From the IMG/VR virus record IMGVR_UViG_2695420617_000013, positions 1 through 18,918 of that record: 18,918 bases of DNA; one strand, 5' to 3'. Below are positions 2,511 through 18,918 of the stretch, in pieces. A program made the position numbers and the translations under genes. Origin of the DNA: a virus (lineage: Duplodnaviria > Heunggongvirae > Uroviricota > Caudoviricetes). Numbering within the stretch: position 1 is the first letter of the stretch; each line of letters opens with the position of its first letter. The notes below the pieces were generated by a model. The model was not told the DNA's origin and did not search any database. It worked only from the letters and a program-made list of their open reading frames with translations.

Positions 2511-2570
2511 TTGATTTTATTCGTAACAAGTATTTTTTATATTTTAATAACATATTTAAAGCAGATAATA

Positions 2571-5787: not shown

Positions 5788-6603
5788 TCAATGAACGGTA
5801 TCGAGCAGCTTTAACAGCTCAGGGAATCGGGATTCGAAGAAATGCGGCTGCGTCTCGCGCGGATTTGCAGGACTGGTGATGTTCTTGCCGAACATGCAGC
5901 CTTTCGCGGTCAGCGACCAGAATTTTTTGATGTTGTTAATCGCGGTACGACTGTATCGTTCGCGTTGTTCAACGATCCCCAGCTTCGCCATCTGGTGATA
6001 TGCCTGATTAGCCGTCAGGCGGATACCATACTGCTTCAGCAGTGCACTCAGCGACAGCGTAGGGCGGCTTGAACCATCTGGCGCATCAGCAGGTGCATCA
6101 ATGGCATAGATCGGCATAAGTTCAGGAAGACCAGCTACCTTTGATAATTTCTGGTATGCACCAAGTTTCGAGGAGTTTGACAGATTTAGAGTCTTTGCTG
6201 CTGATTCAAGCAGAATGACCCCGGATTTAATTTTGTCGGATGTGGTTTCTTCTGGTGATGAATTATGAAGCGCATCAAAAGTACGTATCACTTTTAAGCT
6301 GAATGCCGGGCTGATCCACATTGCATATGCATAGACCAGCTCTTTACAGACATACGTCCCACCATTGCGCCCCTGAATGGTGATGACAGGAATACTACGG
6401 GAATCTCCCGTAGTTTCTTCTTCCAATAATTCCACAAGAGCCTTCGTTTCAGGACGACGCATAAACTCGTGAACTTCCAGCGAACGGGAGGAGCGATTCT
6501 CACCAGCGGCAAGAAGAGCAGCTTTCTGAAGGTCGTTAAGACAGTAGTTAGATTCGAAGTACTGGCGCACAGAAACGCCATCAATTACAAGCAACTGATT
6601 CAT
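5788..6603 (-). CDS. KilA-N domain protein (Roi/antirepressor-like DNA-binding protein)
   Basis: N-terminal region ...IQGRNGGTYVCKELVYAYAMWISPAFSLKVIRTFDAL matches the KilA-N/APSES-type domain signature. ATG at 6603 with GGAG RBS. Confidence 0.65.
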   Translation of the reverse strand: MNQLLVIDGVSVRQYFESNYCLNDLQKAALLAAGENRSSRSLEVHEFMRRPETKALVELLEEETTGDSRSIPVITIQGRNGGTYVCKELVYAYAMWISPAFSLKVIRTFDALHNSSPEETTSDKIKSGVILLESAAKTLNLSNSSKLGAYQKLSKVAGLPELMPIYAIDAPADAPDGSSRPTLSLSALLKQYGIRLTANQAYHQMAKLGIVEQRERYSRTAINNIKKFWSLTAKGCMFGKNITSPANPRETQPHFFESRFPELLKLLDTVH

Positions 6604-6765
6604 TGGTTTCTCCACAAATTTTTATCCACGAGCGGGACTGCACTCCCTTTTCGTTGATGCAGGATGAACTTACTGCGATTTTTAATAGTTATCAAGGATA
6701 CACTGTTCATAAATACAGTATCTTTAACGAGGTAATACCCAAATTTAGGGTGTTGCTCAATTCCG

Positions 6766-7161
6766 TTACCGAGTTGCTAATTTGCAACTCGCTTTTTCGT
6801 ACTTACTGATAGTGATCTCGACCTTCCCCTCCGGGATAACCGGTCCCCACTCCACCAGCATTCTTTTCACCTGACTGTCGTCTTCCCACACCCCCGCGTG
6901 GGTCAGGGCGTCAAACAGCGCCTTGTTATAGTTGTCCAGATCGCGGATCCGGTTATCCGGAGGAAACAACACGATCTCCACTGAAGCAGGTGCCGACGTT
7001 GGTTTCGGCAGACGACGTAACTGCTCAACTATTGCTGCACACGCCGCGCTCTGGAATTTTCGCCCCGCCGCGCTTATCAGGCTCTTACCAGCAAACGCCC
7101 CTTTGTTGGGGTGTCGCCAGTACGTGTTCACGCTGGGCGGAAAAGGCAGGATCAGCTTCAT
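6766..7161 (-). CDS. rusA: Holliday junction resolvase RusA
   Basis: RDLDNYNKALFDALTHAGVWEDDSQV matches the conserved RusA catalytic-Asp region. Start overlaps the upstream gene stop (translational coupling). Confidence 0.85.
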   Translation of the reverse strand: MKLILPFPPSVNTYWRHPNKGAFAGKSLISAAGRKFQSAACAAIVEQLRRLPKPTSAPASVEIVLFPPDNRIRDLDNYNKALFDALTHAGVWEDDSQVKRMLVEWGPVIPEGKVEITISKYEKASCKLATR

Positions 7162-7484
7162 ACTTTCAGGCCTCTCTCATGTAACCAATGGGCTGCACGC
7201 AGCCTGGCGTTTTCCTCACCGGCAAGCAGTGAGCGGATAATCCCGACCGCCTCGCTGTCGTCGTCCTTCACCACGGTATGAAGCGTGATCCCCCGGGCCA
7301 CACCACGCTTTATCGTGATGACGCCTTTTTTCTCCAGTGCGCGAAGATGCTCCACCGCTGCATTCACTGAACGGTATCCCAGCATGGTTGCCACCTCCTG
7401 ATTGGTTGGCGGGAAGCCACGTTCTTTCTGATAAGAAATCAGCATATCCAGCACCTGCTGCTGGCATTGAGTTAACGTCGTCAT
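7158..7484 (-). CDS. LexA N-terminal DNA-binding-domain-only protein (108 aa), lacking the S24 peptidase domain
   Basis: LTQCQQQVLDMLISYQKERGFPPTNQEVATMLGYRSVNAAVEHLRALEKKGVITIKRGVARGITL aligns residue-for-residue with the LexA winged-helix DNA-binding domain ([55 protein letters not shown]). No Ser/Lys autoprotease domain follows. Confidence 0.7.
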   Translation of the reverse strand: MTTLTQCQQQVLDMLISYQKERGFPPTNQEVATMLGYRSVNAAVEHLRALEKKGVITIKRGVARGITLHTVVKDDDSEAVGIIRSLLAGEENARLRAAHWLHERGLKV

Positions 7485-8134
7485 GCCGCCATCTCCCTGA
7501 CCAGTTTTTCCGCCTGCTGGCGAACCTGCGCCAGAAACACCTCACCACATGCCTCAAGTTCATCGCGCCCGATGTAGCTGATTGCCGGTCCCTTCCAGGT
7601 CTTGTCGAAAACAGCAATAGCACCAGCGAAGAAAGCGCCTGTCGGCACCTGCTTCTCATCCTTCGGGATAAACCAGGCAGGCAGTTCAAAACCAATACGC
7701 CCGCGAATAAAAGCAATATGATCTGCATCTTCCGGCCACCACACTTCGCTGGTGGCAGCTTTGATCAGGAAAACATAGCGCCCGCCTTTATCACGCATGG
7801 CACTGGCATGCTTCATGATGTAACGCATGCCGGTGATGTATTGCCCCTCATGCTGACTGGCGCGGCTGTATGGGGGATTACCAAAGGCAGCACCTTTAAG
7901 CTCCGCAAGACGTTCTGACCAGTCATGCGCCAGCGCGTTGTCTTCCGCCGTGTAATACGCGGCACATTTGGCGTTATCACCGTCAGTGAACAGATCCAGA
8001 ACAAACGGACCAAACAGGGTGTTAATTCCCCAGAAAATGTTATCCGGCGTGCGCCACTGATCGCCCACGTCCTTCAGTTCATGGGCTGGTTTGTTCCGCA
8101 GTTCCACCAGCGCCCGGCAATATTTATTACTCAT
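7481..8134 (-). CDS. Phage N6-adenine DNA methyltransferase (Dam-like)
   Basis: NPPY motif (AFGNPPYS) characteristic of N6-adenine methyltransferases. ATG at 8134 overlaps the upstream stop. Typical nin-region phage Dam. Confidence 0.8.
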   Translation of the reverse strand: MSNKYCRALVELRNKPAHELKDVGDQWRTPDNIFWGINTLFGPFVLDLFTDGDNAKCAAYYTAEDNALAHDWSERLAELKGAAFGNPPYSRASQHEGQYITGMRYIMKHASAMRDKGGRYVFLIKAATSEVWWPEDADHIAFIRGRIGFELPAWFIPKDEKQVPTGAFFAGAIAVFDKTWKGPAISYIGRDELEACGEVFLAQVRQQAEKLVREMAA

Positions 8135-8628
8135 TAAGCCCCCACGTAATTCCCTGACAGATACCACTCTTCACCCGATGCAGCGCGCTTGCTGCTTTTC
8201 CGTAAGCACCGCTCACGACGTGCCAGAAAATTGTTTCGTTCTGGCTGGGAGTGGCTTTCACGGAATGCCGCCATCCACACGGTTGCAGCACGACGGTATA
8301 AGCCCCTTGACTCCAGTTCTTCAGCCTGGCGGGTCAGGCACAAAATCACCCGTGGATCGTTAGTGCCGACATAGAAATTGCGCACAGGTCTGGTTTCACG
8401 AACTGGTTGTGGTTCCGGCTCCTGCGCTCTCTCAGTCAGGCGCGGGAAATGTCTGCGTGTATCTCCTTCACAACGGTGAGCCACACGCCCACTCTGACGT
8501 AACTTGCTTGCTGACTGCAGAACGCGCTGCCGTGAGTAACCTGCAAAAGCATCCGCAATGTCTCCGGAAGTACACCCCGGATGGGCTTCAATGAATTTCT
8601 GAACTTCATTCAAAAGACTCATAATCAC
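8134..8628 (-). CDS. PerC-like transcriptional regulator with N-terminal extension
   Basis: C-terminal half (AEELESRGLYRRAATVWMAAF...ERNNFLARRERCL) resembles the PerC/Pch family signature found in enterobacterial prophages. The N-terminal 60 aa are unassigned. Confidence 0.4.
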   Translation of the reverse strand: MIMSLLNEVQKFIEAHPGCTSGDIADAFAGYSRQRVLQSASKLRQSGRVAHRCEGDTRRHFPRLTERAQEPEPQPVRETRPVRNFYVGTNDPRVILCLTRQAEELESRGLYRRAATVWMAAFRESHSQPERNNFLARRERCLRKSSKRAASGEEWYLSGNYVGA

Positions 8629-9566
8629 CCCCTGAATCCTGCCGGGATCTGGCTGTAGTCCACGTTGTCGTAACTGGCTTTGAAGTACGGGTCTTCACGT
8701 TTTTCTGTGTGCGTGCTGACGGACGGCGATAAGCGCAGGGAAAGCTCATCCCATTTTTCCCGCAACTTCGACGGGCTGAGCACGTTACGGCACCAGAACG
8801 GATCGCGGCTGACGCGGCTGTACATCTCGCAGATTTGTTTGTGAGTACGACCATCCTGCACACACATCAGGCGAATTTCGTTTGCCCAGGCTGTCCAGTT
8901 AGGTTCTTTGGGACGAACCACCTCGCCGTCACATTCGGCGGCCTGCTCGTACAGGGCGATGATTTTTTTCCAGAGCCACTGTGCGCAGGTCAAATCATCC
9001 TGCGTCCCCCACTGGCGCTTTTTAGGGCTGAATACAACCGCATCAGGATGGCGAGTTAAAAAATCCTGTTCATCCGTCTGCGTGTCCGGTTGCGAAGCGT
9101 CCGGACGAGAAGGTTTTTTATCTGACGGATCATGTTTTGATTTTACTGACGGATCCCCGACAGATTCTGACGGGTGAAAACCCGCTTTTTTGCCAGATTT
9201 CGACGCATCAAATTTTGACGGGTCAGATTTTGATGCGTCAGATTTTGACGGGTCAGAATCTGACAGTTGAGAAAATGCCGCTGCCTGAAGCTTCGCAACG
9301 TTAAGCTGATAAACATTCGACGCATTGCGGTTACCCTGGCGACGCGCCTTACGCGTTAACCAGCCTTCTGCTTCCAGCCGTGCGATAGCCGTTCTGACGG
9401 TACTCATCCCCGCGCCAATCTGACGGGCAATGGTTTCAATTGATGGCCAGCACACACCTTCGTCATTACTGAAATCAGCCAGGCGGGCCATAATTGCCAC
9501 GCTGGATAACTTCATGCCTGACGCAGCGCAACCATCCCATACATAGCCGGTTAATTTAGTGCTCAT
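8625..9566 (-). CDS. Phage replication initiation protein (O-like), N-terminal wHTH with internal iteron-encoded linker
   Basis: N-terminal HTH (SIETIARQIGAGMSTVRTAIARLEAEGWL), a linker encoded by tandem DNA repeats (SDPSKSDASKSDPSKFDASKS), and a Trp-rich C-terminal domain. Position downstream of cro/cII-like genes matches the lambda O slot. No P- or DnaC-like loader gene follows. Confidence 0.6.
   Translation of the reverse strand: MSTKLTGYVWDGCAASGMKLSSVAIMARLADFSNDEGVCWPSIETIARQIGAGMSTVRTAIARLEAEGWLTRKARRQGNRNASNVYQLNVAKLQAAAFSQLSDSDPSKSDASKSDPSKFDASKSGKKAGFHPSESVGDPSVKSKHDPSDKKPSRPDASQPDTQTDEQDFLTRHPDAVVFSPKKRQWGTQDDLTCAQWLWKKIIALYEQAAECDGEVVRPKEPNWTAWANEIRLMCVQDGRTHKQICEMYSRVSRDPFWCRNVLSPSKLREKWDELSLRLSPSVSTHTEKREDPYFKASYDNVDYSQIPAGFRG
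9121..9265. repeat. Iteron-like direct repeats (candidate replication origin) inside the replication initiator gene
   Basis: About eight copies of a TGACGG(G/A)T-type motif, including three tandem 15-bp units (attttgacgggtcag / attttgatgcgtcag / attttgacgggtcag) at 9211-9255, with AT-richer sequence on one side. This mirrors ori-lambda lying within O. Confidence 0.55.
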
Positions 9567-9575
9567 GACCGACCT

Positions 9576-9914
9576 CTATTTCCCTGAATTTACGACGAAA
9601 CTGTTCGAGCGGACTGAAGCATTCATGCTCATAGCCTTCGCGGAGGTAGATAACCCGTTGTGTTTCCGGCTCCCAACGAATGACTCTGACGGGTACTCCG
9701 TAGTGATCTTTGAACCAGCGGTTAATTTGACGCAAAGGACTGTCTCCTTCTGCCGGTTGAAATCACCCACAGCCCACTCTGCAAAGCTGTGGGTTACAAT
9801 TTCCCTGTCACCTGGTACATTCACTGCATAGCAATACTCCACCTTCGCTTTTCCACCCGGTACAGGAAGCGCAATCAGTTGCGAGCGACGGTAGGGTGTT
9901 GTTAAACTGTTCAT
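9576..9914 (-). CDS. Hypothetical protein (112 aa), translationally coupled upstream of the replication gene
   Basis: Stop TAG lies 9 nt before the initiator ATG, and the strand matches the operon. No domain recognised. An alternative plus-strand ORF (9559..9831) overlaps and was judged less likely. Confidence 0.35.
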
Positions 9915-10525
9915 GCGTTAGTTTCTCCACAATTAGAAGCAATCGACGCCACGACGCCCGGAGCTGCACACTCGCGGGCGTCATTACTTTCTGAAATGCA
10001 AAAGATTTTGTAGACCAGTGCTGCATGCTCCTGCAGCTTCGAAATTGACAGGTACAGTTCGTCGTTAATTGCTGCCTGCTCGTGTGGTTCCACCACCCCG
10101 TCTTCAATTGCTGAACGAATCTGTTTTGAATAACTGCCGATCTGTTCAATGACCTCCAGCAGGCGTTGGTTTATATCGGCGTTCTCTACTTCCTCAATTT
10201 CAGGAAGCGATACAAACACCCCACCAGCAGACTGTGCGACTGCATCCGCAATGTGGTGAGTGCCAGCAGCACGCTGTAAAACCATTGCCCATCCCAGCGG
10301 GAAAATCTGATCGCCATCGGCACGAAGGCGGTTAAATAATGCGTTCTCTGTTACATCCAGCCAGTCAGCAGCTTCAGCGTAACCCCCCGGCAATGCCGCG
10401 ATAGTTTTTCTGACAGCTTTCACGTACCACTCAGGCTGTTTTTCTACTTTCCAGTGATGCTTACCCACGGTTAGCCTCATCGTTCTGTGGTTTCTGTTAA
10501 TCGATTTATCCATTAGATTTTTCAT
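9911..10525 (-). CDS. YdaT-like / cII-position regulatory protein
   Basis: Occupies the slot directly after the cro-like gene, as ydaT does in Rac-type prophages. Start assigned to the internal ATG at 10525 to limit overlap with cro; the ORF-track start is 10582. Family assignment is from position and general resemblance only. Confidence 0.4.
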
Positions 10526-10706
10526 AAAGCTCAGGTTTAAATGGCAACCGTCCGCAAGTTCTATATGCAGCTTCTGCTGCACGTCCTTTTGGAATTAACT
10601 GGCCCGGACGGTTTCGCCACTGATAAACGGCTTCAGTTGTTATGCCGAAAAAAGCAGCAACTTTCTCAATACTGCCGAAGTAGCTTTCGATATCGTCAGT
10701 TGTCAT
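10506..10706 (-). CDS. Cro-like HTH repressor (66 aa)
   Basis: Small HTH protein (FGITTEAVYQWRNRPGQ) transcribed divergently from the cI-like repressor. Strong GGAGGG RBS upstream. Confidence 0.6.
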   Translation of the reverse strand: MTTDDIESYFGSIEKVAAFFGITTEAVYQWRNRPGQLIPKGRAAEAAYRTCGRLPFKPELYEKSNG

Positions 10707-10803
10707 ACGCCCTCCAAACTAAGTTTTATTAGATGCTAATTACAAATCTATCTTTGGTCAATAAAAACTAAGATTACTTAGCAATTCAAGAAATGGTGCT
10801 CCT
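10707..10803. promoter_or_regulatory. Immunity-region operator/promoter (OR-like) between cro-like and cI-like genes
   Basis: 97-bp AT-rich divergent intergenic region with repeated CTAAG/CTTAG half-sites (e.g. CTAAGATTACTTAG, CTAAGTTTTATTAG) and a TTGACC -35-like element for the cro-direction promoter. Confidence 0.4.
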
Positions 10804-11430
10804 ATGGAAACGGTTGGTCAGCGTATAAAAGCTCTGAGAAGAGTTACCAGAACGTCCCAGAAAGAATTGGGTAAATTTTGTGGAGTAAGCGACGTTGCTG
10901 TGGGGTACTGGGAGAAAGACATCAATACCCCTGGTGGGGAGGCACTTTCGAAATTAGCGAAGTTCTTCAATACGTCAATAGATTACATTCTTTATGGTGC
11001 TGAGTTTGAAGGCAAACTCGTCACAAACATGCGCAGAGTTCCTGTAATATCGTGGGTTCAGGCTGGGCAGTTTACTGAGTGCAGGGCAGCAGAAGTGTTT
11101 AGTGAAGTGGACAAGTGGGTAGATACATCATTAAAGATTGGTGATAACTCATTTGCATTAGAGGTTAAAGGTGACTCCATGACTAACCCTAATGGCCTCC
11201 CAACAATACCAGAAGGCGCAACAGTGATTGTAGATCCAGATGCAGAACCTCGTCATGGAAAAATAGTCATCGCTCGACTTGATGGAACAAACGAAGCTAC
11301 AGTAAAAAAATTAGTCATCGATGGCCCTCAAAAGTTTTTAGTGCCATTAAATCCTCGGTATCCCAACATCCCTATCAATGGTAATTGCCTTATCATTGGT
11401 GTAGTCAAAGGAGTTCAATACGAACTCTAA
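10804..11430 (+). CDS. CI-like prophage repressor (HTH-XRE N-terminus, S24 LexA-like autopeptidase C-terminus), 208 aa
   Basis: N-terminal HTH (SQKELGKFCGVSDVAVGYWEKD). C-terminal S24 signature with the Ser nucleophile in GDSM and a downstream Lys (VKKL). Implies a RecA/SOS-cleavable repressor. Confidence 0.9.
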   Translation: METVGQRIKALRRVTRTSQKELGKFCGVSDVAVGYWEKDINTPGGEALSKLAKFFNTSIDYILYGAEFEGKLVTNMRRVPVISWVQAGQFTECRAAEVFSEVDKWVDTSLKIGDNSFALEVKGDSMTNPNGLPTIPEGATVIVDPDAEPRHGKIVIARLDGTNEATVKKLVIDGPQKFLVPLNPRYPNIPINGNCLIIGVVKGVQYEL

Positions 11431-11439
11431 GACCTCTCT

Positions 11440-11632
11440 TCTCTAACTAAGGCACCGAACTAAGAAAAGTTTGGTGTTTTCTCTTGCTATAATAACTAAG
11501 TTAAGTTAGATTTTATATCAAAGATAACGAACAGGCAGGACGCCCACGAAGTAGCCGCCGGTGGCGTATGAATGACCGGATGATTCGTTAGCAACAAAAA
11601 AAGCGCCCTATAGGACGCTTCGCTCTTTAACA
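11440..11632 (+). promoter_or_regulatory. Candidate pL-like promoter/operator region with rrn-type boxA-like motif
   Basis: CTAAG operator-like repeats (aactaaggcaccgaactaag; aactaagttaagttag) flank an extended -10 (tTGcTATAAT) near 11484-11492. Downstream motif GCTCTTTAACAA at about 11618-11629 matches the core of the boxA element as I recall it, preceded by a palindrome gcgccctataggacgc. Confidence 0.3.
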
Positions 11633-11664
11633 ATCCTGGTATCCCCGTAACAAAAGAGGGTTCT

Positions 11665-11958
11665 ATGGTCATATTCTGTGCTTACGTTCATCCTAATGGA
11701 TTTTTTATCAGCACCAACCAACAAGACGAATTCTGGATTCTACTTAGTAAGCAGGTCGGATGGGGACGATTCTGTCTAATCCGACCAGAATCAGAATTTA
11801 CAGAGAATGGAGGGCTTTTTGAATTACGTGAAATACGTCCGGCAGATGGTCAAGCCCCTGACCAAGTAATCGAATCGTCAGCTGTTTTATGGCGTCGGCA
11901 GGAAGCGTTCGAAGCTGAGAGAGTAATTTCTTCTTATCTTCAGTCGTGGCAGAAGTAG
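11665..11958 (+). CDS. Hypothetical protein (97 aa), first ORF downstream of the putative pL
   Basis: Good RBS (aaagagggttctATG). No recognisable domain and not Arg-rich (not N-like). Its 3' 160 nt overlap the convergent ORF 11798..12301, so one of the two may be mis-called. Confidence 0.35.
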   Translation: MVIFCAYVHPNGFFISTNQQDEFWILLSKQVGWGRFCLIRPESEFTENGGLFELREIRPADGQAPDQVIESSAVLWRRQEAFEAERVISSYLQSWQK

Positions 11959-12301
11959 AACTATTGATGATACGTTCAAGTTCACAGAGAGTCTCATCAT
12001 GCAATCTTATTGTCATAATCCCAAGAATAGCTTTAAGACCTCCATCATCACGAATGAAATCAATTCCATCTTTAGTAATTCTTAATTCAGGAATATTTAT
12101 ATTTATGCCATCCAAGTAATAATCAAGAGCATTCTTAATCAAGCCATGTTCTTCGAGATAAATTAAGTTCGAAATTAGGACATTATCATCTCCAAATGCG
12201 TCACGAACAGACTGCAACGCATCATCAGAAATTTCATAAGGATGAGCATCATACAGTATTTGTAACAACTGCCTTTGTGCACTTCTATCAAATTTGTCCA
12301 T
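11798..12301 (-). CDS. Hypothetical AT-rich protein with predicted winged-helix motif (DUF2513-like?), convergent with the cI/pL direction
   Basis: Strongly AT-rich coding sequence (about 11960-12300) versus GC-balanced flanks. Motif NLIYLEEHGLIKN resembles a wHTH recognition helix. Opposite orientation to all neighbours. A hairpin (ggtcggat...atccgacc) follows its stop. Confidence 0.5.
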   Translation of the reverse strand: MDKFDRSAQRQLLQILYDAHPYEISDDALQSVRDAFGDDNVLISNLIYLEEHGLIKNALDYYLDGININIPELRITKDGIDFIRDDGGLKAILGIMTIRLHDETLCELERIINSSTSATTEDKKKLLSQLRTLPADAIKQLTIRLLGQGLDHLPDVFHVIQKALHSL

Positions 12302-12579
12302 CTTAAATAATCACCATGTTATTGGGGTTATCAAGATTAACCGAATCCTTGTTGTTGGGGAATAACCAGGTCCACCTCGCCTGATGTGGCTAAAAGCAGG
12401 CACATAACAGCTAAGTATTTTCAACCAGAGAGAATCCTTAGCGTTGTGGTGAATGCGGCTCAGCGCACGCGGGTTAAGGTTGAGGCTGACAGTCGACCTT
12501 CTGTGGATACCCACCCGCCTGGTGTGCAACCTTCGCCAGGCACCGGGAGGCACCCGGCACCACAACAGCCACTGCTTTG

Positions 12580-12714
12580 GCGGTACCAGTTTGTACACTT
12601 GCTTCCGGCTGGTACCGCTCTTTTTACAAAACAGAGAAGAGCATCACCGGACGACGGGCTCATAACCCAATCCACCCGGGCGGCTGCCACCGCAGGTGTT
12701 CTTCTCTGTTTTGT
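12580..12714 (+). promoter_or_regulatory. Structured leader: terminator-like hairpin plus long imperfect inverted repeat upstream of the yfdP-like operon
   Basis: Hairpin cggtaccag-(loop)-ctggtaccg followed by ctcttttt (12582-12625). Immediately after, acaaaacagagaaga...tcttctctgttttgt forms a 15-bp perfect stem extended by 4 more bp across a bulge, enclosing a 46-nt GC-rich loop. The terminator U-tract (ctcttttt) overlaps sequence complementary to the second stem (agaagag), so the two structures are mutually exclusive. boxA-like CGCTCTTTTTAC at about 12617. Confidence 0.4.
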
Positions 12715-12762
12715 GGAGAAACCAACCGACCTTGCAGGGTCGATATGATGAGGAGCAGCAAA

Positions 12763-13125
12763 ATGGCTAGCGAACGCAGTACTGATGTGCAGGCATTTAT
12801 CGGGGAGCTGGACGGCGGCGTATTTGAAACCAAAATCGGCGCAGTTCTCAGTGAAGTCGCTTCCGGTGTGATGAACACGAAAACCAAAGGGAAGGTCTCA
12901 CTCAATCTGGAAATCGAACCGTTTGATGAGAACCGTGTGAAAATCAAACACAAACTCTCATATGTTCGCCCGACTAACCGCGGGAAAATTTCCGAAGAAG
13001 ACACCACCGAAACGCCGATGTATGTCAATCGCGGTGGTCGCCTGACTATTCTGCAGGAAGACCAGGGACAATTACTGACTCTTGCCGGTGAACCTGACGG
13101 AAAACTCCGCGCAGCAGGTCATTAA
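12763..13125 (+). CDS. YfdP-like phage early protein (120 aa)
   Basis: ATG with GAGGAG RBS, directly upstream of the yfdQ/yfdR/yfdS-like genes in the same order as the CPS-53 (KplE1) prophage cluster as I recall it. The ORF-track start at 12577 lies in the structured GC-rich leader and is rejected. Confidence 0.55.
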   Translation: MASERSTDVQAFIGELDGGVFETKIGAVLSEVASGVMNTKTKGKVSLNLEIEPFDENRVKIKHKLSYVRPTNRGKISEEDTTETPMYVNRGGRLTILQEDQGQLLTLAGEPDGKLRAAGH

Positions 13126-13190
13126 TATCGTTTTTAATTAACTGATTATTTATCTCATCACTGAATATTTTTATATAGTGAGGACTTATT

Positions 13191-14015
13191 ATGTCTCAGA
13201 ACTTAGACGCAACCGCAATTAATCAAATCCATGCCCTTATTTCTGCTCAGGGTGTTAATGAAATTATCAGTAAGATTGGTGCCGATGCTGTGGCATTGCC
13301 TGAGAATTTCCGCATTCATGATCTGGAAAAATTTAATTTAAATCGTTTCCGTTTCCGTGGTGCGCTTTCCACTGCCAGCATCGATGACTTTACCCGTTAT
13401 TCTAAAGATCTTGCAGATGAAGGCACCCGCTGCTTTATCGATGCCGATAATATGCGTGCCGTCAGTGTGCTTAACCTGGGTACTATTGATGAACCAGGTC
13501 ACGCAGATAACACCGCCACTCTCAAACTGAAAAAGACAGCACCGTTCTCTGCTCTGTTGTATGTTAATGGCGAGCGTAACTCCCAGAAATCACTGGCAGA
13601 ATGGATTGAAGACTGGGCCGACTACCTTGTGGGCTTTGATGCTAATGGTGACACCATTCAGGCAACAAAAGCGGCTGCGGCGGTCCGTAAAATCACGATT
13701 GAAGCAAACCAGACTGCTGATTTTGAAGATAATGACTTCAGCGGCAAACGCTCCCTGATGGAGTCTGTCGAAGCGAAGACCAAAGACATTATGCCAGTGG
13801 CATTTGAGTTTAAATGCGTTCCGTTTGAAGGTCTGAAAGAACGTCCGTTTAAATTACGCCTCAGCATTATCACTGGCGATCGTCCGGTACTGGTTCTGCG
13901 CATTATTCAGCTGGAAGCGGTGCAGGAAGATATGGCTAACGAATTTCGTGATCTGCTTGTTGAGAAATTCAAGGACAGCAAAGTAGAAACCTTTATTGGG
14001 ACTTTCACCGCCTGA
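13191..14015 (+). CDS. yfdQ: YfdQ-like protein (DUF2303 family), 274 aa
   Basis: Length and sequence character match E. coli prophage YfdQ as recalled. GAGGA RBS. Conserved gene order with the HD-domain YfdR homolog downstream. Confidence 0.7.
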
Positions 14016-14027
14016 TTTCATTACTGC

Positions 14028-14049
14028 AAATGCCCCTGCGGGGGCATTT
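14028..14049. other. Perfect 9-bp-stem hairpin (aaatgcccc-tgcg-ggggcattt) between yfdQ-like and yfdR-like genes
   Basis: Seen directly in the sequence. Lacks a long U-tract, so it is a weak terminator at best; could be an attenuator or RNA processing/stability element. Confidence 0.3.
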
Positions 14050-14142
14050 ATGGAAACATAATTGACTCAATAATCGCCTGATGGCGAGGGTTTTCTTTAA
14101 CCAAAATTCAGCGCGGTGCAGCGCATATACGTGGAGAACAAA

Positions 14143-14679
14143 ATGTCATTTATTAAAACTTTTTCCGGGAAGCATTTTTATTATGACAAGATAAATAAAG
14201 ACGACATCGTGATTAACGATATCGCGGTTTCCCTTTCAAATATCTGTCGCTTTGCAGGACATCTTTCACACTTCTACAGTGTCGCCCAGCATGCAGTGCT
14301 TTGCAGCCAACTGGTGCCGCAGGAATTTGCTTTTGAAGCGTTAATGCATGATGCAACAGAAGCGTATTGCCAGGACATCCCCGCACCACTGAAACGACTT
14401 CTTCCTGACTATAAACGGATGGAAGAAAAAATAGACGCCGTAATCCGTGAGAAATACGGGTTACCTCCTGTTATGAGCACGCCAGTGAAATATGCCGATC
14501 TCATTATGCTGGCAACCGAACGCCGCGATCTCGGACTTGATGATGGCTCTTTCTGGCCTGTATTGGAAGGTATCCCGGCAACAGAGATGTTCAAAGTTAT
14601 TCCACTGTCGCCAGGTCATGCCTACGGGATGTTTATGGAACGTTTTAACGAGTTATCGGAGTTACGCAAATGCGCATGA
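14143..14679 (+). CDS. yfdR: HD-domain 5'-deoxynucleotidase, YfdR-like (178 aa)
   Basis: HD phosphohydrolase motifs (H...LMHDATEAY) and 178-aa length from the ATG at 14143 with GGAGA RBS. The ORF-track start at 14116 is upstream of the RBS. Confidence 0.8.
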   Translation: MSFIKTFSGKHFYYDKINKDDIVINDIAVSLSNICRFAGHLSHFYSVAQHAVLCSQLVPQEFAFEALMHDATEAYCQDIPAPLKRLLPDYKRMEEKIDAVIREKYGLPPVMSTPVKYADLIMLATERRDLGLDDGSFWPVLEGIPATEMFKVIPLSPGHAYGMFMERFNELSELRKCA

Positions 14680-15032
14680 ATGTTTTCGAAATGGAAGGGT
14701 TTCTTCGCGGGAAATGTGTACCGCGAGATCTGAAAGTGAACGAAACAAATGCTGAGTACCTGGTACGTAAATTCGACGCGCTTGAAGCTAAATGTGCGGC
14801 ACTGGAAAACAAAATAATACCAGTGTCAGCTGAATTGCCACCTGCAAATGAAAGTGTTCTGTTATTTGATGCTAACGGAGAAGGCTGGCTGATTGGCTGG
14901 CGTTCTCTCTGGTACACCTGGGGACAAAAGGAAACCGGAGAATGGCAGTGGACATTTCAGGTCGGGGATCTTGAAAACGTCAATATCACTCACTGGGCAG
15001 TAATACCAAAGGCACCGGAGGCAGGGGCATAA
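14670..15032 (+). CDS. yfdS: YfdS-like phage protein (120 aa)
   Basis: Start overlaps the yfdR-like stop (ATGCGCATGA). Same length and position as YfdS in the yfdPQRST cluster. Confidence 0.6.
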   Translation: MRMNVFEMEGFLRGKCVPRDLKVNETNAEYLVRKFDALEAKCAALENKIIPVSAELPPANESVLLFDANGEGWLIGWRSLWYTWGQKETGEWQWTFQVGDLENVNITHWAVIPKAPEAGA

Positions 15033-15652
15033 TGACCACATTTACCGACAAAGAACTGATTAAAGAAATCAAAGAGCGTATAGGCAGTCTGGATGTGCGA
15101 GACAATATTGAGCGCCGTGCTTATGAAATTGCTTTGGTATCGCTGGAAGCAGAACCGGTGGCATGGCTGCATTCAGACAATGGCTTAGGTATTCCGGCAA
15201 TAACACGGAGTAAAAACATTGCTGACAGTTGGTTATCAAAGGGCTGGTATGTTCAGCCGCTATATATAGCCAAGCCAGTGCCGGTGGTGCCAGATGTTCG
15301 TCCATCTTTAAATAATGGCATAGTCGGTTTTGATGAAGGCTGGAACGCCTGCCGCGCCGCCATGCTTCATGGTGCCGAACCTGTAAGCCAAACTTACAAG
15401 TTGAACGAGCTGTCGGGCAACTCTCCGGTAACTCCGGATGGTTGGATAAGCTGTAGTGAGCGAATGCCGAACGATAAACAGTATGTTTGGTGTTGGGGGA
15501 AGTCTTACGGCTGGACTGAGTGCGATACCTTCGAAGGGTATTACGATTGGTCGAGAAACAAATGGTGGGCAATTACTGACGATGGGGAAGAACCGGCATC
15601 GAAAGTAACCCACTGGATGACGCTACCGGAGCCACCGCAGGAGGTGAAGTAA
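15032..15652 (+). CDS. Phage protein with C-terminal DUF551 domain
   Basis: C-terminal Trp-rich motif (PDGWISCSERMPNDKQYVWCWGKS...KWWAITDDGEE...VTHWMTLPEPP) is characteristic of DUF551. Start overlaps the upstream stop (TAATGA). Confidence 0.65.
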   Translation: MTTFTDKELIKEIKERIGSLDVRDNIERRAYEIALVSLEAEPVAWLHSDNGLGIPAITRSKNIADSWLSKGWYVQPLYIAKPVPVVPDVRPSLNNGIVGFDEGWNACRAAMLHGAEPVSQTYKLNELSGNSPVTPDGWISCSERMPNDKQYVWCWGKSYGWTECDTFEGYYDWSRNKWWAITDDGEEPASKVTHWMTLPEPPQEVK

Positions 15653-15900
15653 TGAACAACTTAATGACAACTAAACAAGTCGCCGACTTCTGTGGCGTTT
15701 CAGTATCGACCGTTCTTCGCTGGAACAGTGTAAACAGGAGAACTGGCCAGAAATACAGGCCAGACTTTCCAGATCCTGATATTAAATCCTGCCCAAATAA
15801 ATGGGCATCACGTAAGATTTACAAATTTGCCGGAGTTATTGAGGAATGTGAAGCAGCTCAGATTGAGATGACACATCCTATAGCACATAGCCAAACATAG
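15652..15900 (+). CDS. Excisionase-like / AlpA-type HTH DNA-binding protein (82 aa)
   Basis: HTH (TTKQVADFCGVSVSTVLRW) in a small protein at the distal end of the early-left operon near the integrase, the usual xis position. Start overlaps the upstream stop. Confidence 0.45.
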   Translation: MNNLMTTKQVADFCGVSVSTVLRWNSVNRRTGQKYRPDFPDPDIKSCPNKWASRKIYKFAGVIEECEAAQIEMTHPIAHSQT

Positions 15901-16096
15901 CAATCAGACTGTCCGCTTTGTGTTGAAGCGGACATTGCCGCAGCGACTTGTCTTAGCCATAAATAACCAAAACGATGCGCTGTTCATATAAAGTTCTTTT
16001 AAACTTCAAATCAGTAATTTTTGTCTAAATCTTTTCAAACTCATAAAAACCAGTAAGATAAGAAATCACCTTTACCTGTTTTTATGAGAGGCATAA

Positions 16097-17323
16097 ATGA
16101 TTGATAATGAAGTTAAAATTTTTGCAAAAGAAAAAGAAAAAATGCTGTGCAGCAAACTTTCTTTTTACAGGGAGCATGCTCAATCGAGTGAAGATACAAG
16201 AAAAAGAAACGAATTTGAACGAGACTATGCGCGTATTCTTTATTCCTCTTCGTTCCGCCGGTTACAGGGAAAAATGCAGCTCTTTGAAGTCGATCCTCAA
16301 AAATTTAACCGTAATAGACTGACTCATAGCCTAGAAGTTGCCCAGATAGCCCGAAGCATCGCATCCGAACTAGAACTTGAACATCCTGTTGTAGCAGAAC
16401 TGGCTGCACTTGCTCACGATATTGGCAACCCTCCGTTTGGTCATTCCGGTGAAAAAAAGCTAAACGATATTGCTAATGATTTCGGCGGCTACGAAGGCAA
16501 TGCGCAGGCACTTAGAATACTCAGAAGTCTCGAGATAAAGCATCCAAATTGCCCCGGTCTCAACCTTACCCACCGTGCCATTCTCTCCGTCGTTAAATAT
16601 CCTTATAAAAAGGAAAACGGCAGAAAAAAATATCTTTATAATGATGACTATAAATACTACACAGAATTGGTAAATAGATATGAATTAGATTTGCAGACTG
16701 GCGAGAAGACCATTGATGCACAGATAATGGATCTGTCAGACGAAATTGCATATGCCGCGCATGACCTTGAAGATGCACTAAGCCGTAGCATGGTCAGTAT
16801 TGAAGATATTTTTTATGAGTTTGGGATATCCAAGTACAAAGACTCAATTGATTTATTAAATACAATCATTGAAAAATCTAAATATACAGCTTCGAGAGCA
16901 TCAAGACTCAATTCATCTGAAGAGTTCGCCATAATATTCAGAAAGGAATTGACATCCAATATTGTTAATGCGCTTGTTAATGATATTACTGTTATTCAAA
17001 GTGAAAATGGATTCAAGCAACTTGGATTTAGCACTACAAAAAATCTGTCTGCAGGCCTTAAAGATATCGTATTTAAAGTCATCATGCGAAAAAGAGATAT
17101 TAAAAGTTATGAGCACAAAGGAAACATTATCATCGAAGATTTATTTAATTTTTATAATGATAGAGATAACATAGAATTCATATCCCCTCAATTGTATAGA
17201 ACGCTCCCAAATAAAATAGAGCCTATTTATCAAGAACTTAAAAAACGTGCAATTGTCGACTACATCTCTGGAATGATGGATACATTTGCCATCCGCGAGT
17301 GGGAAACGCATCACAAAAAATAA
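16097..17323 (+). CDS. Dgt-family HD-domain dNTP triphosphohydrolase (dGTPase-like), 408 aa; candidate anti-phage dNTP-depletion enzyme
   Basis: Conserved dGTPase motifs: DYARILYSSSFRRLQGKMQLF, RLTHSLEVAQIARSI, HDIGNPPFGHSGE, DEIAYAAHDLEDA. Strong GAGAGG RBS. The gene is markedly AT-rich relative to the flanking prophage genes and sits alone between the excisionase-like gene and the convergent integrase. Confidence 0.85.
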   Translation: MIDNEVKIFAKEKEKMLCSKLSFYREHAQSSEDTRKRNEFERDYARILYSSSFRRLQGKMQLFEVDPQKFNRNRLTHSLEVAQIARSIASELELEHPVVAELAALAHDIGNPPFGHSGEKKLNDIANDFGGYEGNAQALRILRSLEIKHPNCPGLNLTHRAILSVVKYPYKKENGRKKYLYNDDYKYYTELVNRYELDLQTGEKTIDAQIMDLSDEIAYAAHDLEDALSRSMVSIEDIFYEFGISKYKDSIDLLNTIIEKSKYTASRASRLNSSEEFAIIFRKELTSNIVNALVNDITVIQSENGFKQLGFSTTKNLSAGLKDIVFKVIMRKRDIKSYEHKGNIIIEDLFNFYNDRDNIEFISPQLYRTLPNKIEPIYQELKKRAIVDYISGMMDTFAIREWETHHKK

Positions 17324-17694
17324 CCAAACTGGCGCACATCAACAACAGATTCAGTGCCACTCTTCCCATGGGACAGAACAGTGATTCTGTCCATTATCAC
17401 CCGATTATACAGATAAGCCACATCTAGTAGTTCTGAGCTAGCATTTTCCACATTGATTACGCTTCCGTGCACATCGTTATTTTTAACCAAAAAGAAAGGA
17501 CATACGCAAAAATAATATCAAGTAACGGAGTGTGTTAAATCGTAACCAATCATCTTTACTTTACATTTCGTAACTTAAACCGTACGTTTTCTAAACATTA
17601 AATATACACTTTGCGCTGTAAGTTATATCTCTCCGTTAAGCTCACTGCTCAACGCCAATAGTCATATTTTATTGCGTTCTGGCTGCGCAAATTG

Positions 17695-18918
17695 TCAACT
17701 GGAATCTGAACTAGGACAAGTAACGAGCGATTCAACCCTCTCCCACCATACCTGGTAGGCTTTACGCTGTTCTTCTAGATAATCGCTCTTGTCATAAACC
17801 TGCCATACCCCTGGCAGTTTATGACCAAGCATAATTTCTGCAATATGAGGCGCAGTAAGATCAGAAAAGTTTGTTCGTGCTGTTCGCCTCAAATCATGAA
17901 GAGACCAATGAGGGAATTGATACCCCAAACGTCGCCATGCGAACTGCATTAAATTGTAAGGCAGCGACTGCAATGATGTCCGACCAACTGGCTCCCTGCT
18001 TCCTTCCTTAGTAAAAAGCATATCGGAACCGTTGTTCATAGAGATAACGTATTTTATAAGCTCTTCAACCGGTTCAATAATGGGCCGCTTTAGTGGTTCG
18101 CCTGTTATCTCCCCTGTCTTATGTCGTTCTGGCGGTACAGTCCATACCTTATTAATGAAATCAAAATCGTCCACCCTGGCGGTAATTAGCTCTGAACTAC
18201 GGCAGCCAAAATGCAGCAATAGTTTAATGAAGGCCCGGTATTTAGGAACCATTCGAGAACCATCGATCGCAGCATAAAGGATTTTAATTTCATCATGTGT
18301 CAGAAACCGTTTCTTCTGACCTTTACGGATATCCATATCTTTACCCGTGATATCCGACAGCGGGCGAGTTTCAATGAGCTTTCTCTTATACGCCCAGACA
18401 TGGGCCTGCTTTGCGTTAATTAGTAATCGGTCTGCTATTGCTGGAGCCTTAGTGCTAAGAGGCTCCAGGACTTCTAACCAATCATGCAATGTAGCTGCAT
18501 CGTGAGGGATATTCCCGATTTTAGAGAACAGGTGCAGCTCAAACGAGCGGAGTATCTGTTCAGAGCCTTTTTTATTTTTTACACAATATGCTTCATACCA
18601 GGCACGGATCACAGACTCTACCGTCATGGCTTCAGTAGCTTTTCGTTTTTCAGCCTGCTTGACCAATCGTGGATTACGGTTTGACTCGAGTTCACCACGG
18701 AGACGGATAACTTCTTCTCTGGCCTCTTTTAATCCAGTTGCCGGGTAAGTTCCGATATCAAGACGCTCACCTTTCCCTGCCCATTGATAACGATATTGGA
18801 ACACTACGCGACCTTTCGGTGATACTCTGACAGACAGACCATCACGATCGGATTTAACCAAAACCTTATCACGTTCCTTTCCAACGACTGAACGCAACCA
18901 CGCATCAGACAGCGCCAT
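17695..18918 (-). CDS. Tyrosine recombinase / phage integrase with N-terminal arm-binding domain (407 aa)
   Basis: N-terminal arm-type domain (GLSVRVSPKGRVVFQYRYQWAGKGERLDIGTYPATGLKEAREE) and C-terminal catalytic region (HDLRRTARTNF...GH...Y). The ATG is the last three bases of the window, so the attachment site and any tRNA lie beyond the edge. Confidence 0.9.
   Translation of the reverse strand: MALSDAWLRSVVGKERDKVLVKSDRDGLSVRVSPKGRVVFQYRYQWAGKGERLDIGTYPATGLKEAREEVIRLRGELESNRNPRLVKQAEKRKATEAMTVESVIRAWYEAYCVKNKKGSEQILRSFELHLFSKIGNIPHDAATLHDWLEVLEPLSTKAPAIADRLLINAKQAHVWAYKRKLIETRPLSDITGKDMDIRKGQKKRFLTHDEIKILYAAIDGSRMVPKYRAFIKLLLHFGCRSSELITARVDDFDFINKVWTVPPERHKTGEITGEPLKRPIIEPVEELIKYVISMNNGSDMLFTKEGSREPVGRTSLQSLPYNLMQFAWRRLGYQFPHWSLHDLRRTARTNFSDLTAPHIAEIMLGHKLPGVWQVYDKSDYLEEQRKAYQVWWERVESLVTCPSSDSS

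What the first reader, a model, noticed from the sequence alone, without database searches (positions are those of the whole stretch)
15901..17694. AT-rich single-gene cargo island encoding a dGTPase-like HD triphosphohydrolase between excisionase and integrase
The 408-aa ORF carries the full set of Dgt/SAMHD1-type dNTP triphosphohydrolase motifs, but its composition is far more AT-rich than the surrounding prophage genes, which points to recent horizontal acquisition. It sits alone in the integrase-proximal slot, a classic hotspot for anti-phage cargo, flanked by non-coding spacers (a hairpin at 15910-15932 on the left and a 370-bp AT-rich spacer on the right). Standalone defensive dGTPases that starve infecting phage of dNTPs have been described; this looks like a prophage-borne, possibly divergent, member. 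In the same arm the prophage also encodes an HD-domain 5'-deoxynucleotidase (yfdR-like), so two nucleotide-degrading HD enzymes are co-resident.
Basis: partly seen in the sequence, partly recalled or inferred. Interest (0 to 1): 0.8.

Follow-up and report, generated by a model that had tools for sequence, protein, structure and literature searches.

The report
Prophage-borne anti-phage dGTPase cargo gene
An E. coli lambda-like prophage carries, in a swap-prone slot between its excision and integration genes, one gene for an enzyme that destroys the DNA building block dGTP; this is a new example of a known anti-phage defence, not a new kind of system.

Summary
ORF 16097-17323 (+, 408 aa) is an intact dGTP triphosphohydrolase. 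It lies alone between an excisionase (15652-15900) and a convergent integrase (17695-18918) of an E. coli lambdoid prophage inserted next to yjjG. The island has 37% GC against 47% for the rest of the window.

The protein passes TIGR01353 and matches the PADLOC dGTPase model (E 3.5e-105). It is 53% identical to Vibrio cholerae Vdg, an octameric anti-phage dGTPase with a solved structure, and keeps every catalytic and dGTP-binding residue. It is not the housekeeping Dgt, not the Shewanella-type clade tested by Tal et al., and not Clover, because there is no CloB partner.

Three results support a defence role:
- The same slot in sister prophages holds Dsr1, Borvo or at least seven unknown cargos.
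- The gene travels as a 1.6-kb module found next to Shango and a Mokosh-like gene in Enterobacter, and next to Avs3 in Providencia.
- dN/dS is about 0.17.

Defence activity, expression in the lysogen and the trigger are inferred, not shown. yfdR is a backbone gene, so its co-residence is incidental.

Verdict: a new member of a known kind, already annotated and detectable. Interest is low to moderate. The hypervariable slot itself is the better lead.

The parts
15652..15900 (+). Excisionase (xis), the last backbone gene of the early-left operon and the left border of the cargo slot
   Evidence: PHROG 1553 excisionase, E 1.3e-35. Weak HTH_17/MerR hits. Backbone homology to sister prophages ends at 15863-15922.
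15910..15934 (+). Hairpin just after the xis stop: TGTCCGCTT, 7-nt loop, AAGCGGACA. A junction element of the backbone, not specific to this cargo.
   Evidence: Perfect 9-bp inverted repeat, -15.3 kcal/mol, z -2.0. A hairpin at the same place in L005, L026 and L002/L007 has compensatory arm changes. No T-run and no terminator call.
15985..16096 (+). 5' non-coding part of the mobile dGTPase module. Candidate weak promoter TTTTCA (16032-16037), 16-nt spacer, TAAGAT (16054-16059). Shine-Dalgarno GAGAGG at 16086-16091.
   Evidence: Homology to the Enterobacter, Providencia and L008 copies starts at 15985 in all three. Both hexamers are conserved in L008. The promoter is inferred: it matches 8 of 12 positions, below the scan threshold. 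The inverted repeat 16040-16056 / 16072-16088 is not conserved in L008.
16097..17323 (+). dGTP triphosphohydrolase, 408 aa, HD plus HD_assoc domains, Vdg clade
   Evidence: PADLOC dGTPase 350.6 bits, E 3.5e-105. TIGR01353 314 bits against a cutoff of 152. PDB 9vwa (Vdg) E 9e-115. 53% identity to Vdg with catalytic and dGTP-site residues conserved. AlphaFold2 pLDDT 89, pTM 0.90; every listed PDB fold match is a dGTPase/dNTPase. dN/dS about 0.17.
17371..17392 (+). Hairpin GGACAGAA, 6-nt loop, TTCTGTCC, 48 nt after the stop codon. Likely a 3' end or stabiliser element of the dGTPase transcript.
   Evidence: Perfect 8-bp inverted repeat, -13.2 kcal/mol, z -2.15. 100% conserved in L008 although the surrounding DNA differs by about 25%. 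No T-run.
17324..17598 (+). 3' non-coding trailer that travels with the gene as part of the 1.6-kb module
   Evidence: Homology to L008-L012 and L018 runs to 17598, and to L019 to 17425. No ORF is conserved, because the alignment has 2-nt and 12-nt indels. No Rfam family matches. Found in E. coli only with this cargo, apart from two deletion derivatives.
17647..17694 (-). Conserved backbone sequence 3' of the integrase stop; right border of the slot
   Evidence: Homology to sister prophages resumes at 17647-17671.
17695..18918 (-). Tyrosine integrase, convergent with xis and the dGTPase; yjjG lies beyond it
   Evidence: Pfam Arm-DNA-bind_3, Phage_int_M and Phage_integrase. PHROG 1. Chromosomal context in strain 631.
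14143..14679 (+). yfdR-like HD 5'-deoxynucleotidase. Backbone context only, not part of the cargo.
   Evidence: RefSeq annotates yfdR. PHROG 318, E 2e-111. Annotated beside 9 of the 10 other slot loci with a gene table; missing from L024, frameshifted in L005.

Best explanation
The island is a self-contained 1.6-kb mobile module carrying one gene for a dGTP triphosphohydrolase of the Vdg (Vibrio cholerae 'octameric dGTPase') clade. It sits in the hypervariable cargo slot between xis and int of a lambdoid prophage integrated next to yjjG in E. coli. The module runs from 15985 to about 17598 and comprises its own 5' region, the ORF and a 3' trailer.

Shown here: the protein has the fold, the metal ligands, the catalytic His/Glu dyad and all nine dGTP-contacting residues of Vdg. 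It is under purifying selection. Known defence genes are its positional alternatives and its neighbours.

Inferred: in the lysogen the enzyme hydrolyses dGTP to deoxyguanosine and triphosphate. This starves the DNA replication of superinfecting phages and so protects the host and the resident prophage. Activity is probably tuned through the conserved dimer-interface nucleotide pocket, which binds dAMP in Vdg. Seven of its eight residues are kept here. The gene is probably transcribed from a weak promoter of its own inside the conserved 112-bp upstream segment.
For: Enzyme identity:
- Pfam HD plus HD_assoc.
- TIGR01353 314 bits, above the 152 cutoff.
- PADLOC dGTPase E 3.5e-105.
- PDB 9vwa/9vwc (Vdg) E 9e-115 over residues 1-405.
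- AlphaFold2 pLDDT 89; every listed fold match is a dGTPase/dNTPase.

Residues compared with Vdg:
- HD metal ligands H77, H107, D108 and D215, and the dyad H116/E119, are conserved.
- dGTP site: 9 of 9 identical.
- dAMP site: 7 of 8 identical.
- Octamer interface: 10 of 14 alignable positions identical.

Function of the closest relative: Vdg hydrolyses dGTP and protected E. coli against T2, T4, T5, T6, T7 and phiX174. The H114A mutant lost protection (PMC13519002).

Mobility: the region is in 42 of 5426 complete E. coli genomes and in two Stx2c-converting phage genomes. The same module, at 82-84% identity, is in Enterobacter hormaechei, Providencia heimbachae and an unidentified species.

Association with defence genes:
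- Sister prophages carry Dsr1 or Borvo BovA in the same slot.
- In Enterobacter the module lies between a Mokosh-like MkoC gene and Shango SngABC.
- In Providencia it lies beside Avs3a/b on an integrase-bearing island.

Selection: dN/dS is about 0.17 against three orthologues.

Composition: 37% GC against 47% for the rest of the window.
Against: - This protein has never been tested. Its nearest tested relative is only 53% identical and was assayed under IPTG overexpression in BL21(DE3).
- The NCBIfam anti-phage dGTPase models are not met: 276 bits against a cutoff of 400, and 243 against 383.
- Identity to the Shewanella defence enzyme is only about 26%. Tal et al. found that homologues below 45% identity to it were rarely next to defence genes.
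- No sigma-70 promoter reaches the scan threshold upstream on the + strand.
- The gene points the same way as the early-left operon. It could therefore be expressed on induction rather than in lysogeny, and dGTP depletion would then hurt the prophage's own replication.
- Vdg R31 is Asp33 here, and the C-terminal tail bearing the octamer contacts Y400 and K402 is missing. Regulation and oligomeric state may therefore differ.
Confidence: 0.72

Rival explanations
1. The enzyme serves the phage rather than defence. It is read through from the early-left (pL-type) operon after induction and reshapes dNTP pools for the phage's own benefit, for example to slow host replication or to exclude competitors only during lytic growth. 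It contributes nothing in the lysogen.
For: - It has the same orientation as yfdP-yfdQ-yfdR-xis and lies directly downstream of them.
- The hairpin after xis has no T-run, so it may not terminate transcription.
- No strong promoter of its own was found.
- Distantly related dGTPase homologues (25-32% identity) occur in other phage genome records.
Against: - The gene moves with its own conserved 112-bp upstream DNA into non-prophage defence islands.
- Cargo in this slot sits on either strand, for example Dsr1 and BovA on the minus strand, so the slot does not depend on operon read-through.
- dGTP depletion during lytic growth would starve the phage itself.
- Clade members give defence when expressed alone.
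Confidence: 0.13
2. The gene is a passenger with no current function: a hitchhiking or decaying moron kept only by linkage to int and xis.
For: - The prophage family decays. Two genomes carry a deletion from the KilA-N gene to window 17410 that removes the gene.
- A 364-aa truncated form heads a protein cluster (P0001).
- The Borvo cargo in the same slot is split into two ORFs.
Against: - dN/dS is about 0.17 against three orthologues.
- The region is full-length and at least 99% identical in 42 genomes of unrelated serotypes.
- All functional residues are intact.
Confidence: 0.06
3. It is the effector of a multi-gene nucleotide-signalling system such as Clover (CloA plus CloB), with a partner that restrains or triggers it.
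For: - CloA structures are among the best fold matches (TM 0.76).
- CloA expressed alone is toxic and needs CloB.
- A conserved 275-bp trailer of unknown function follows the gene.
Against: - The module has one ORF. No conserved ORF lies in the trailer and none of the three other contexts has a shared neighbouring gene.
- CloA similarity is remote (E 7.5e-30, 24-25% identity) compared with Vdg at E 9e-115.
- Vdg works as a single gene.
Confidence: 0.05
4. It is the housekeeping E. coli dgt, or a copy of it.
For: Same enzyme superfamily.
Against: - NF003429 scores 164 bits against a 405 cutoff.
- E. coli Dgt (4x9e, 505 aa) matches at only E 2e-23, with 22-23% identity in the fold alignment.
- The gene lies between xis and int of a prophage and is present in 0.8% of complete genomes.
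Confidence: 0.01

Closest known systems
Vdg, the octameric anti-phage dGTPase of Vibrio cholerae O1 (DGT1B_VIBCH; PDB 9vwa, 9vwc, 9vwg; Shi et al., Nat Commun 2026, PMC13519002)
   Same: - Single-gene HD plus HD_assoc enzyme of about 400 aa.
- 53% identity over the full length, E 9e-115.
- Identical catalytic dyad, metal ligands and all nine dGTP-contacting residues.
- 7 of 8 dAMP-pocket residues identical.
- Most dimer-to-octamer contact residues identical.
   Different: - Vdg R31, which gates the allosteric pocket, is Asp33 here.
- The last 9 residues, including the octamer contacts Y400 and K402, are absent.
- A 5-residue insertion lies near residue 303, and the 360-380 region differs.
- 0 of 4 residues of the 16-mer interface are kept.
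- This copy is carried by a prophage.
- It has not been tested.
Sp-dGTPase-type defensive dGTPases (Shewanella putrefaciens CN-32, E. coli G177 and others; Tal et al. 2021/2022; NCBIfam NF041026; PDB 9p8w)
   Same: Standalone HD dGTPase proposed to defend by depleting dGTP. Same fold (TM 0.71). Same PADLOC system name.
   Different: - A different clade: about 26% identity.
- NF041026 scores 276 bits, below its 400 cutoff.
- The motif is HDIGNPPFGHSGE here, against HDIGHPPFGHGGE in the tested enzymes.
- This protein is shorter, lacking the insertion after the first HD helix.
Clover (CloA dGTPase plus CloB nucleotidyltransferase; PMC12265719)
   Same: A dGTPase effector under allosteric nucleotide control at the dimer interface. 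Similar fold.
   Different: No CloB partner. Remote sequence similarity (E 7.5e-30).
E. coli housekeeping Dgt (PDB 4x9e) and human SAMHD1
   Same: HD-domain dNTP triphosphohydrolase chemistry and core fold.
   Different: E. coli Dgt is a 505-aa hexamer encoded by a chromosomal housekeeping gene (own knowledge) and matches at 22-23% identity. SAMHD1 has a SAM domain and broad dNTP specificity (and own knowledge).
Prophage defence hotspots, such as the P2 and P4 hotspots (Rousset et al. 2022, PMC9122126)
   Same: A fixed position in a temperate-phage backbone where unrelated anti-phage cargos replace one another.
   Different: A different phage family and position: the xis-int junction of yjjG-integrating lambdoid prophages. 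I found no description of this slot in the held library, which does not prove that none exists.

Membership tests
dGTP/dNTP triphosphohydrolase (HD superfamily; TIGR01353) | HD domain with the H...HD...D metal ligands | tested here: met
   H77, H107-D108 and D215. Pfam HD E 8.6e-14. These columns are invariant in a 40-sequence alignment.
dGTP/dNTP triphosphohydrolase (HD superfamily; TIGR01353) | C-terminal HD_assoc domain and a whole-protein score above the curated cutoff | tested here: met
   PF13286 E 2.4e-13. TIGR01353 314.4 bits against a cutoff of 152.35.
dGTP/dNTP triphosphohydrolase (HD superfamily; TIGR01353) | dGTPase fold | tested here: met
   AlphaFold2 pLDDT 89.1, pTM 0.90. All 50 listed Foldseek PDB matches are dGTPases or dNTPases, TM 0.63-0.78.
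dGTP/dNTP triphosphohydrolase (HD superfamily; TIGR01353) | Hydrolysis of dGTP to deoxyguanosine and triphosphate | not testable with these tools
   Needs a biochemical assay.
Vdg-type octameric anti-phage dGTPase | Close full-length sequence relationship to Vdg | tested here: met
   E 9.1e-115 over residues 1-405. 53% identity.
Vdg-type octameric anti-phage dGTPase | Catalytic dyad (Vdg H114/E117) and the dGTP-binding residues | tested here: met
   H116/E119 are present, and 9 of 9 dGTP-site residues are identical.
Vdg-type octameric anti-phage dGTPase | dAMP allosteric pocket | tested here: inconclusive
   7 of 8 residues identical. Vdg R31, said to exclude dADP and dATP, is Asp33 here.
Vdg-type octameric anti-phage dGTPase | Octamer assembly through the dimer-dimer interface | tested here: inconclusive
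   10 of 14 alignable interface residues identical. The C-terminal tail with Y400 and K402 is absent. No multimer prediction or experiment was available.
Vdg-type octameric anti-phage dGTPase | Protection against phage that depends on catalysis | not testable with these tools
   Shown for Vdg only, under IPTG overexpression.
Sp-dGTPase-type anti-phage dGTPase (NCBIfam NF041026 / NF003701) | Score at or above the curated cutoff | tested here: not met
   276.1 bits against 400, and 243.2 against 383.
Sp-dGTPase-type anti-phage dGTPase (NCBIfam NF041026 / NF003701) | At least 45% identity to Sp-dGTPase, the bound Tal et al. used for the defence-associated set | tested here: not met
   26% identity in the fold alignment to 9p8w. 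The criterion is quoted.
PADLOC 'dGTPase' defence system | Match to model PDLC02374 | tested here: met
   350.6 bits, E 3.5e-105, model positions 23-370 of 395. PADLOC's own threshold was not shown.
Clover (CloA/CloB) | Adjacent CloB nucleotidyltransferase gene | tested here: not met
   The cargo has a single ORF. There is no conserved ORF in the flanks and no shared neighbour in other contexts.
Housekeeping E. coli Dgt (NF003429) | Equivalog score and a conserved chromosomal locus | tested here: not met
   163.8 bits against a cutoff of 405. The gene lies in a prophage slot and occurs in 42 of 5426 genomes.

The most novel reading that the evidence does not exclude
The dGTPase may be one cassette of an undescribed cassette-exchange hotspot at the xis-int junction of yjjG-integrating lambdoid prophages, which include Stx-converting phages.
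- At least 10 alternative cargos occupy the same few hundred bases.
- Three are known defences: dGTPase, Dsr1 and Borvo.
- At least seven gene sets have no Pfam or PADLOC match and could be new anti-phage systems.
- The slot is bracketed by related hairpin motifs that may mark the exchange points.

A second, weaker reading concerns the enzyme itself. This enterobacterial subclade has Asp in place of Vdg R31, lacks the C-terminal latch and has an invariant 3' hairpin. It may respond to a different nucleotide cue or assemble differently from Vdg.
Probability: 0.4. Interest if true: 0.55.

Novelty: new member of a known kind. Interest (0 to 1): 0.3.

Why it matters
The case shows a nucleotide-depletion defence carried by lambdoid prophages, including two Stx2c-converting phage genomes, in EHEC-type and other E. 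coli. That bears on phage therapy, on Stx-phage ecology and on how a prophage avoids starving its own replication. The enzyme adds little that is new, because its clade already has a structure and a phenotype. More useful is the slot it occupies: a short, well-bounded and highly polymorphic site present in about 12% of complete E. coli genomes. Several of its unannotated cargos are ready candidates for defence screens.

Tried and rejected
- Rfam over the whole window found nothing in the island. The only hit is a cspA thermoregulator at 2811-3250.
- The promoter and terminator scan found no + strand promoter and no terminator in 15600-17800. The promoter I propose is below the scan threshold and is only an inference.
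- The 17-nt inverted repeat 16040-16056 / 16072-16088 just upstream of the start folds well (z -3.1). Its right arm is not conserved in L008, so I dropped it as an operator or 5'-UTR switch.
- The minus-strand ORF 17311-17490 and the minus-strand promoter-like site 17538-17509 are not conserved in L008, where there are indels and a changed -35. I rejected them as a hidden partner gene.
- The flanking non-coding DNA diverges by 0.23-0.25, against 0.33 at synonymous sites. That is weak constraint at most, not evidence for a structured RNA.
- I checked whether the E. coli G177 dGTPase tested by Tal et al. is this protein. It is not; it belongs to the other clade.
- The right half of the spacer occurs without the gene in two genomes. 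These proved to be deletion derivatives, not another cargo.
- The single-protein scan of genome contigs reached only close relatives (2 loci), so I could not do a broad context census for the clade.
- Literature searches for a description of this slot found none.
Full report
**What is in the sequence**

The window is part of an E. coli lambdoid prophage. It is 100% identical to several complete chromosomes, for example strain 631. There the prophage runs from terminase and lysis genes, through the Q, replication and immunity regions, to yfdP-yfdQ-yfdR, two DUF551 genes, xis, the gene in question and a convergent integrase. The host genes yjjG, rimI and holD follow.

The finding's ORF is 16097-17323 on the + strand. 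It has 408 codons, an ATG start and a GAGAGG Shine-Dalgarno 5 nt upstream. RefSeq annotates the same coordinates as a 'deoxyguanosinetriphosphate triphosphohydrolase family protein'.

The flanking genes are confirmed:
- 15652-15900 is an excisionase (PHROG 1553, E 1.3e-35).
- 17695-18918 on the minus strand is a tyrosine integrase with arm-binding, central and catalytic domains.

**Composition and boundaries**

The ORF has 36.8% GC (GC3 33%), the left spacer 35.2% and the right 371-bp spacer 38.5%. The first 15.9 kb of the window has 47.2%. The C-terminal half of the ORF is the most AT-rich part, at 32%.

The contrast is real but not unique. About 2000-3400 and 11798-12301 are equally AT-rich.

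Comparison with sister prophages at the same chromosomal site gives independent boundaries. Backbone homology stops at 15863-15922 and resumes at 17647-17671.

The hairpin is a perfect 9-bp stem, 15910-15918 with 15926-15934, at -15.3 kcal/mol and z -2.0. It has no T-run, and the scan calls no terminator in 15600-17800.

**What the protein is**

- Pfam finds HD plus HD_assoc.
- NCBIfam TIGR01353 (dGTP triphosphohydrolase) scores 314 bits against a cutoff of 152.
- The PADLOC dGTPase model scores 350.6 bits, E 3.5e-105.
- The best solved relative is PDB 9vwa/9vwc, at E 9e-115 over residues 1-405. This is Vdg of Vibrio cholerae O1, described in July 2026 as an octameric dGTPase. Vdg hydrolyses dGTP and is enhanced by dAMP bound at the dimer interface. 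It protected E. coli against T2, T4, T5, T6, T7 and phiX174, and the H114A mutant lost protection (PMC13519002).
- An AlphaFold2 model built on 40 homologues has pLDDT 89 and pTM 0.90. Every one of the 50 listed Foldseek PDB matches is a dGTPase or dNTPase: V. cholerae VC1979, CloA, the Shewanella anti-phage dGTPase, the Thermus dNTPase, E. coli Dgt and the L. blandensis dGTPase. That library predates the Vdg entries.

**Residue mapping onto Vdg**

Identity is 53% over 386 aligned positions.
- The HD metal ligands H77, H107, D108 and D215 and the catalytic dyad H116/E119 are conserved.
- All nine dGTP contacts are identical: Q61, L62, N135, K167, Y168, K178, Y219, D223 and E339.
- Seven of eight dAMP-pocket residues are identical. 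The exception is Vdg R31, which the authors say excludes dADP and dATP; it is Asp33 here.
- Ten of fourteen alignable dimer-to-octamer contacts are identical. The others are H-to-Y, K-to-R, E-to-N and Y-to-F changes.
- The protein ends 9 residues earlier than Vdg and lacks the tail residues Y400 and K402.
- None of the four residues of the 16-mer interface is kept.

On sequence the enzyme is therefore a dGTP-specific member of the Vdg clade. Its oligomeric state and its effector are uncertain.

**What it is not**

- It is not the housekeeping Dgt. The NF003429 equivalog scores 164 bits against a cutoff of 405. E. coli Dgt (4x9e) matches at only E 2e-23, with about 23% identity in the fold alignment. 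The region is present in only 42 of 5426 complete E. coli genomes.
- It is not in the clade of the original defence paper. The E. coli G177, Shewanella, Pseudoalteromonas and Mesorhizobium enzymes carry the HDIGHPPFGHGGE motif and an extra insertion. The NCBIfam anti-phage models are not reached (276 against 400, and 243 against 383). Identity to the Shewanella structure is about 26%. That is below the 45% bound above which Tal et al. saw enrichment next to defence genes.
- It is not Clover. CloA is a remote relative, and there is no CloB-like partner.

**Evidence that it is mobile defence cargo**

1. *The slot is hypervariable.* At least 672 complete genomes share the xis-side flank, but only 42 share the island. 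I inspected twelve loci at the same yjjG site and found at least ten different cargos:
   - this dGTPase;
   - Dsr1 (72 genomes);
   - Borvo BovA, split into two ORFs (32 genomes);
   - a 515-aa unknown (35 genomes, and also in many Stx2c and Stx1a phage records);
   - a 331-aa unknown (APEC O1);
   - a 413-aa unknown (CE10);
   - a 160+150-aa pair;
   - a 62+183-aa pair;
   - a 239-aa unknown;
   - a 271-aa unknown.

   Cargos lie on either strand.
2. *The gene moves as a unit.* Window 15985-17598 comprises 112 bp upstream, the ORF and 275 bp downstream. It is 82-84% identical to DNA in Enterobacter hormaechei B56, Providencia heimbachae (as far as 17425) and contigs of an unidentified species. 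The left end is the same in all of them.
3. *Its neighbours elsewhere are defence genes.* In Enterobacter they are a Mokosh-like MkoC gene and a complete Shango SngABC. In Providencia they are an integrase and Avs3a/b. A second E. coli variant (P0032, 64% identity) sits in another island, beside cdiBA.
4. *The gene is under purifying selection.* dN/dS is about 0.17 against three orthologues.
5. *Phage genomes carry it.* Two Stx2c-converting phage genome records contain the identical arrangement. Four IMG/VR viral contigs also contain it, two of them on a partly different backbone.

**How it most likely works**

Shown: the catalytic machinery and the guanine- and triphosphate-binding residues of a characterised dGTPase are intact, the gene is selected, and it keeps company with defence systems.

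Inferred: the lysogen produces the enzyme, which converts dGTP to deoxyguanosine and triphosphate. This denies replicating superinfecting phages a nucleotide they need. Control is probably allosteric, through the conserved interface pocket. In relatives that pocket reads nucleotide imbalance caused by infection: dAMP for Vdg and dTTP for CloA.

Transcription probably starts within the co-mobile upstream segment. The best candidate is TTTTCA (16032-16037), a 16-nt spacer and TAAGAT (16054-16059). Both hexamers are conserved in L008. The match is only 8 of 12 positions and below the scan threshold, so this is a guess.

The hairpin 17371-17392 is invariant between E. coli and L008, although the DNA around it differs by about 25%. 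It is the likeliest 3'-end element.

**Open problems**

- Expression in the lysogen is unproven.
- The gene is co-oriented with the early-left operon.
- Nothing explains how the prophage would avoid starving itself on induction.
- The defence phenotype of the nearest relative was obtained under overexpression.

**The yfdR remark**

The yfdR-like HD 5'-deoxynucleotidase is present at 14143-14679. It is a backbone gene annotated beside 9 of the 10 other cargo loci whose gene table I read. It is missing from L024 and frameshifted in L005. Its co-residence with the dGTPase is therefore incidental, not a designed pairing.

**Verdict**

The object is a new, untested member of a known and recently characterised kind. 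Standard annotation and defence-finder models already recognise it. Interest is low to moderate (0.3). The more promising lead is the slot itself, with its many unannotated cargos and the related hairpin motifs at both junctions. I did not find this slot described in the literature I could search.

Noticed in passing
window 15863-15922 and 17647-17671; loci L002-L007 and L024-L028: The xis-int junction of this yjjG-integrated prophage family is a hypervariable slot. Twelve sampled loci hold at least 10 cargo types. Seven gene sets have no Pfam or PADLOC match: proteins of 515, 413, 331, 271 and 239 aa, a 160+150 aa pair and a 62+183 aa pair. These are candidate new defence genes.
   Followed up: partly
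window 15910-15934 and 17640-17665; L004, L005, L006 and L026 junctions: Related hairpin motifs bracket the slot. After the xis stop, a stem with left arm CTGTCYRCTYTG recurs with compensatory right arms in different cargo variants. Downstream of the int stop, on the minus strand, L004-L006 carry a CAGTCCGCTTTGAGC...GCGGAC hairpin. This looks like two copies or halves of a bidirectional terminator, and possibly the exchange points. The int-side copy is degenerate in the window.
   Followed up: partly
window 17324-17598, hairpin 17371-17392: A 275-bp non-coding trailer travels with the dGTPase gene between species. It contains an 8-bp hairpin that is 100% conserved and has no conserved ORF and no Rfam match. 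Its function is unknown.
   Followed up: partly
window 11798-12301 (-): A second AT-rich gene (38% GC, GC3 30%) of 167 aa lies between the cI-like repressor gene and yfdP. It matches PHROG 3983 (unknown function) and has no Pfam or PADLOC match. It looks like another moron.
   Followed up: partly
window 2811-3250 (-): Rfam finds a cspA thermoregulator (156 bits) spanning the prophage cold-shock gene that RefSeq annotates as cspB (ORF 2874-3089) and its upstream leader, inside an AT-rich Qin-like block of csp genes.
   Followed up: no
L016 and L017 (E. coli USMARC-49610 and Z142-6), equivalent to window about 6000-17410: Two genomes carry the same prophage with a deletion from inside the KilA-N gene to window 17410. 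It removes the whole early region and the dGTPase, which shows that the prophage is decaying.
   Followed up: yes
L013-L015 (E. coli), gene at 6001-7233: A second Vdg-clade dGTPase of E. coli (P0032, 64% identical, cluster of 730 sequences) sits in a different island, next to cdiB/cdiA and an H-NS-like gene.
   Followed up: no
L003 5355-7486 (-): The Borvo (BovA) cargo in O121-type strains is split into 260-aa and 396-aa ORFs. They match the N- and C-terminal parts of the 720-position BovA model. The gene may be disrupted, or it may be a two-part variant.
   Followed up: no
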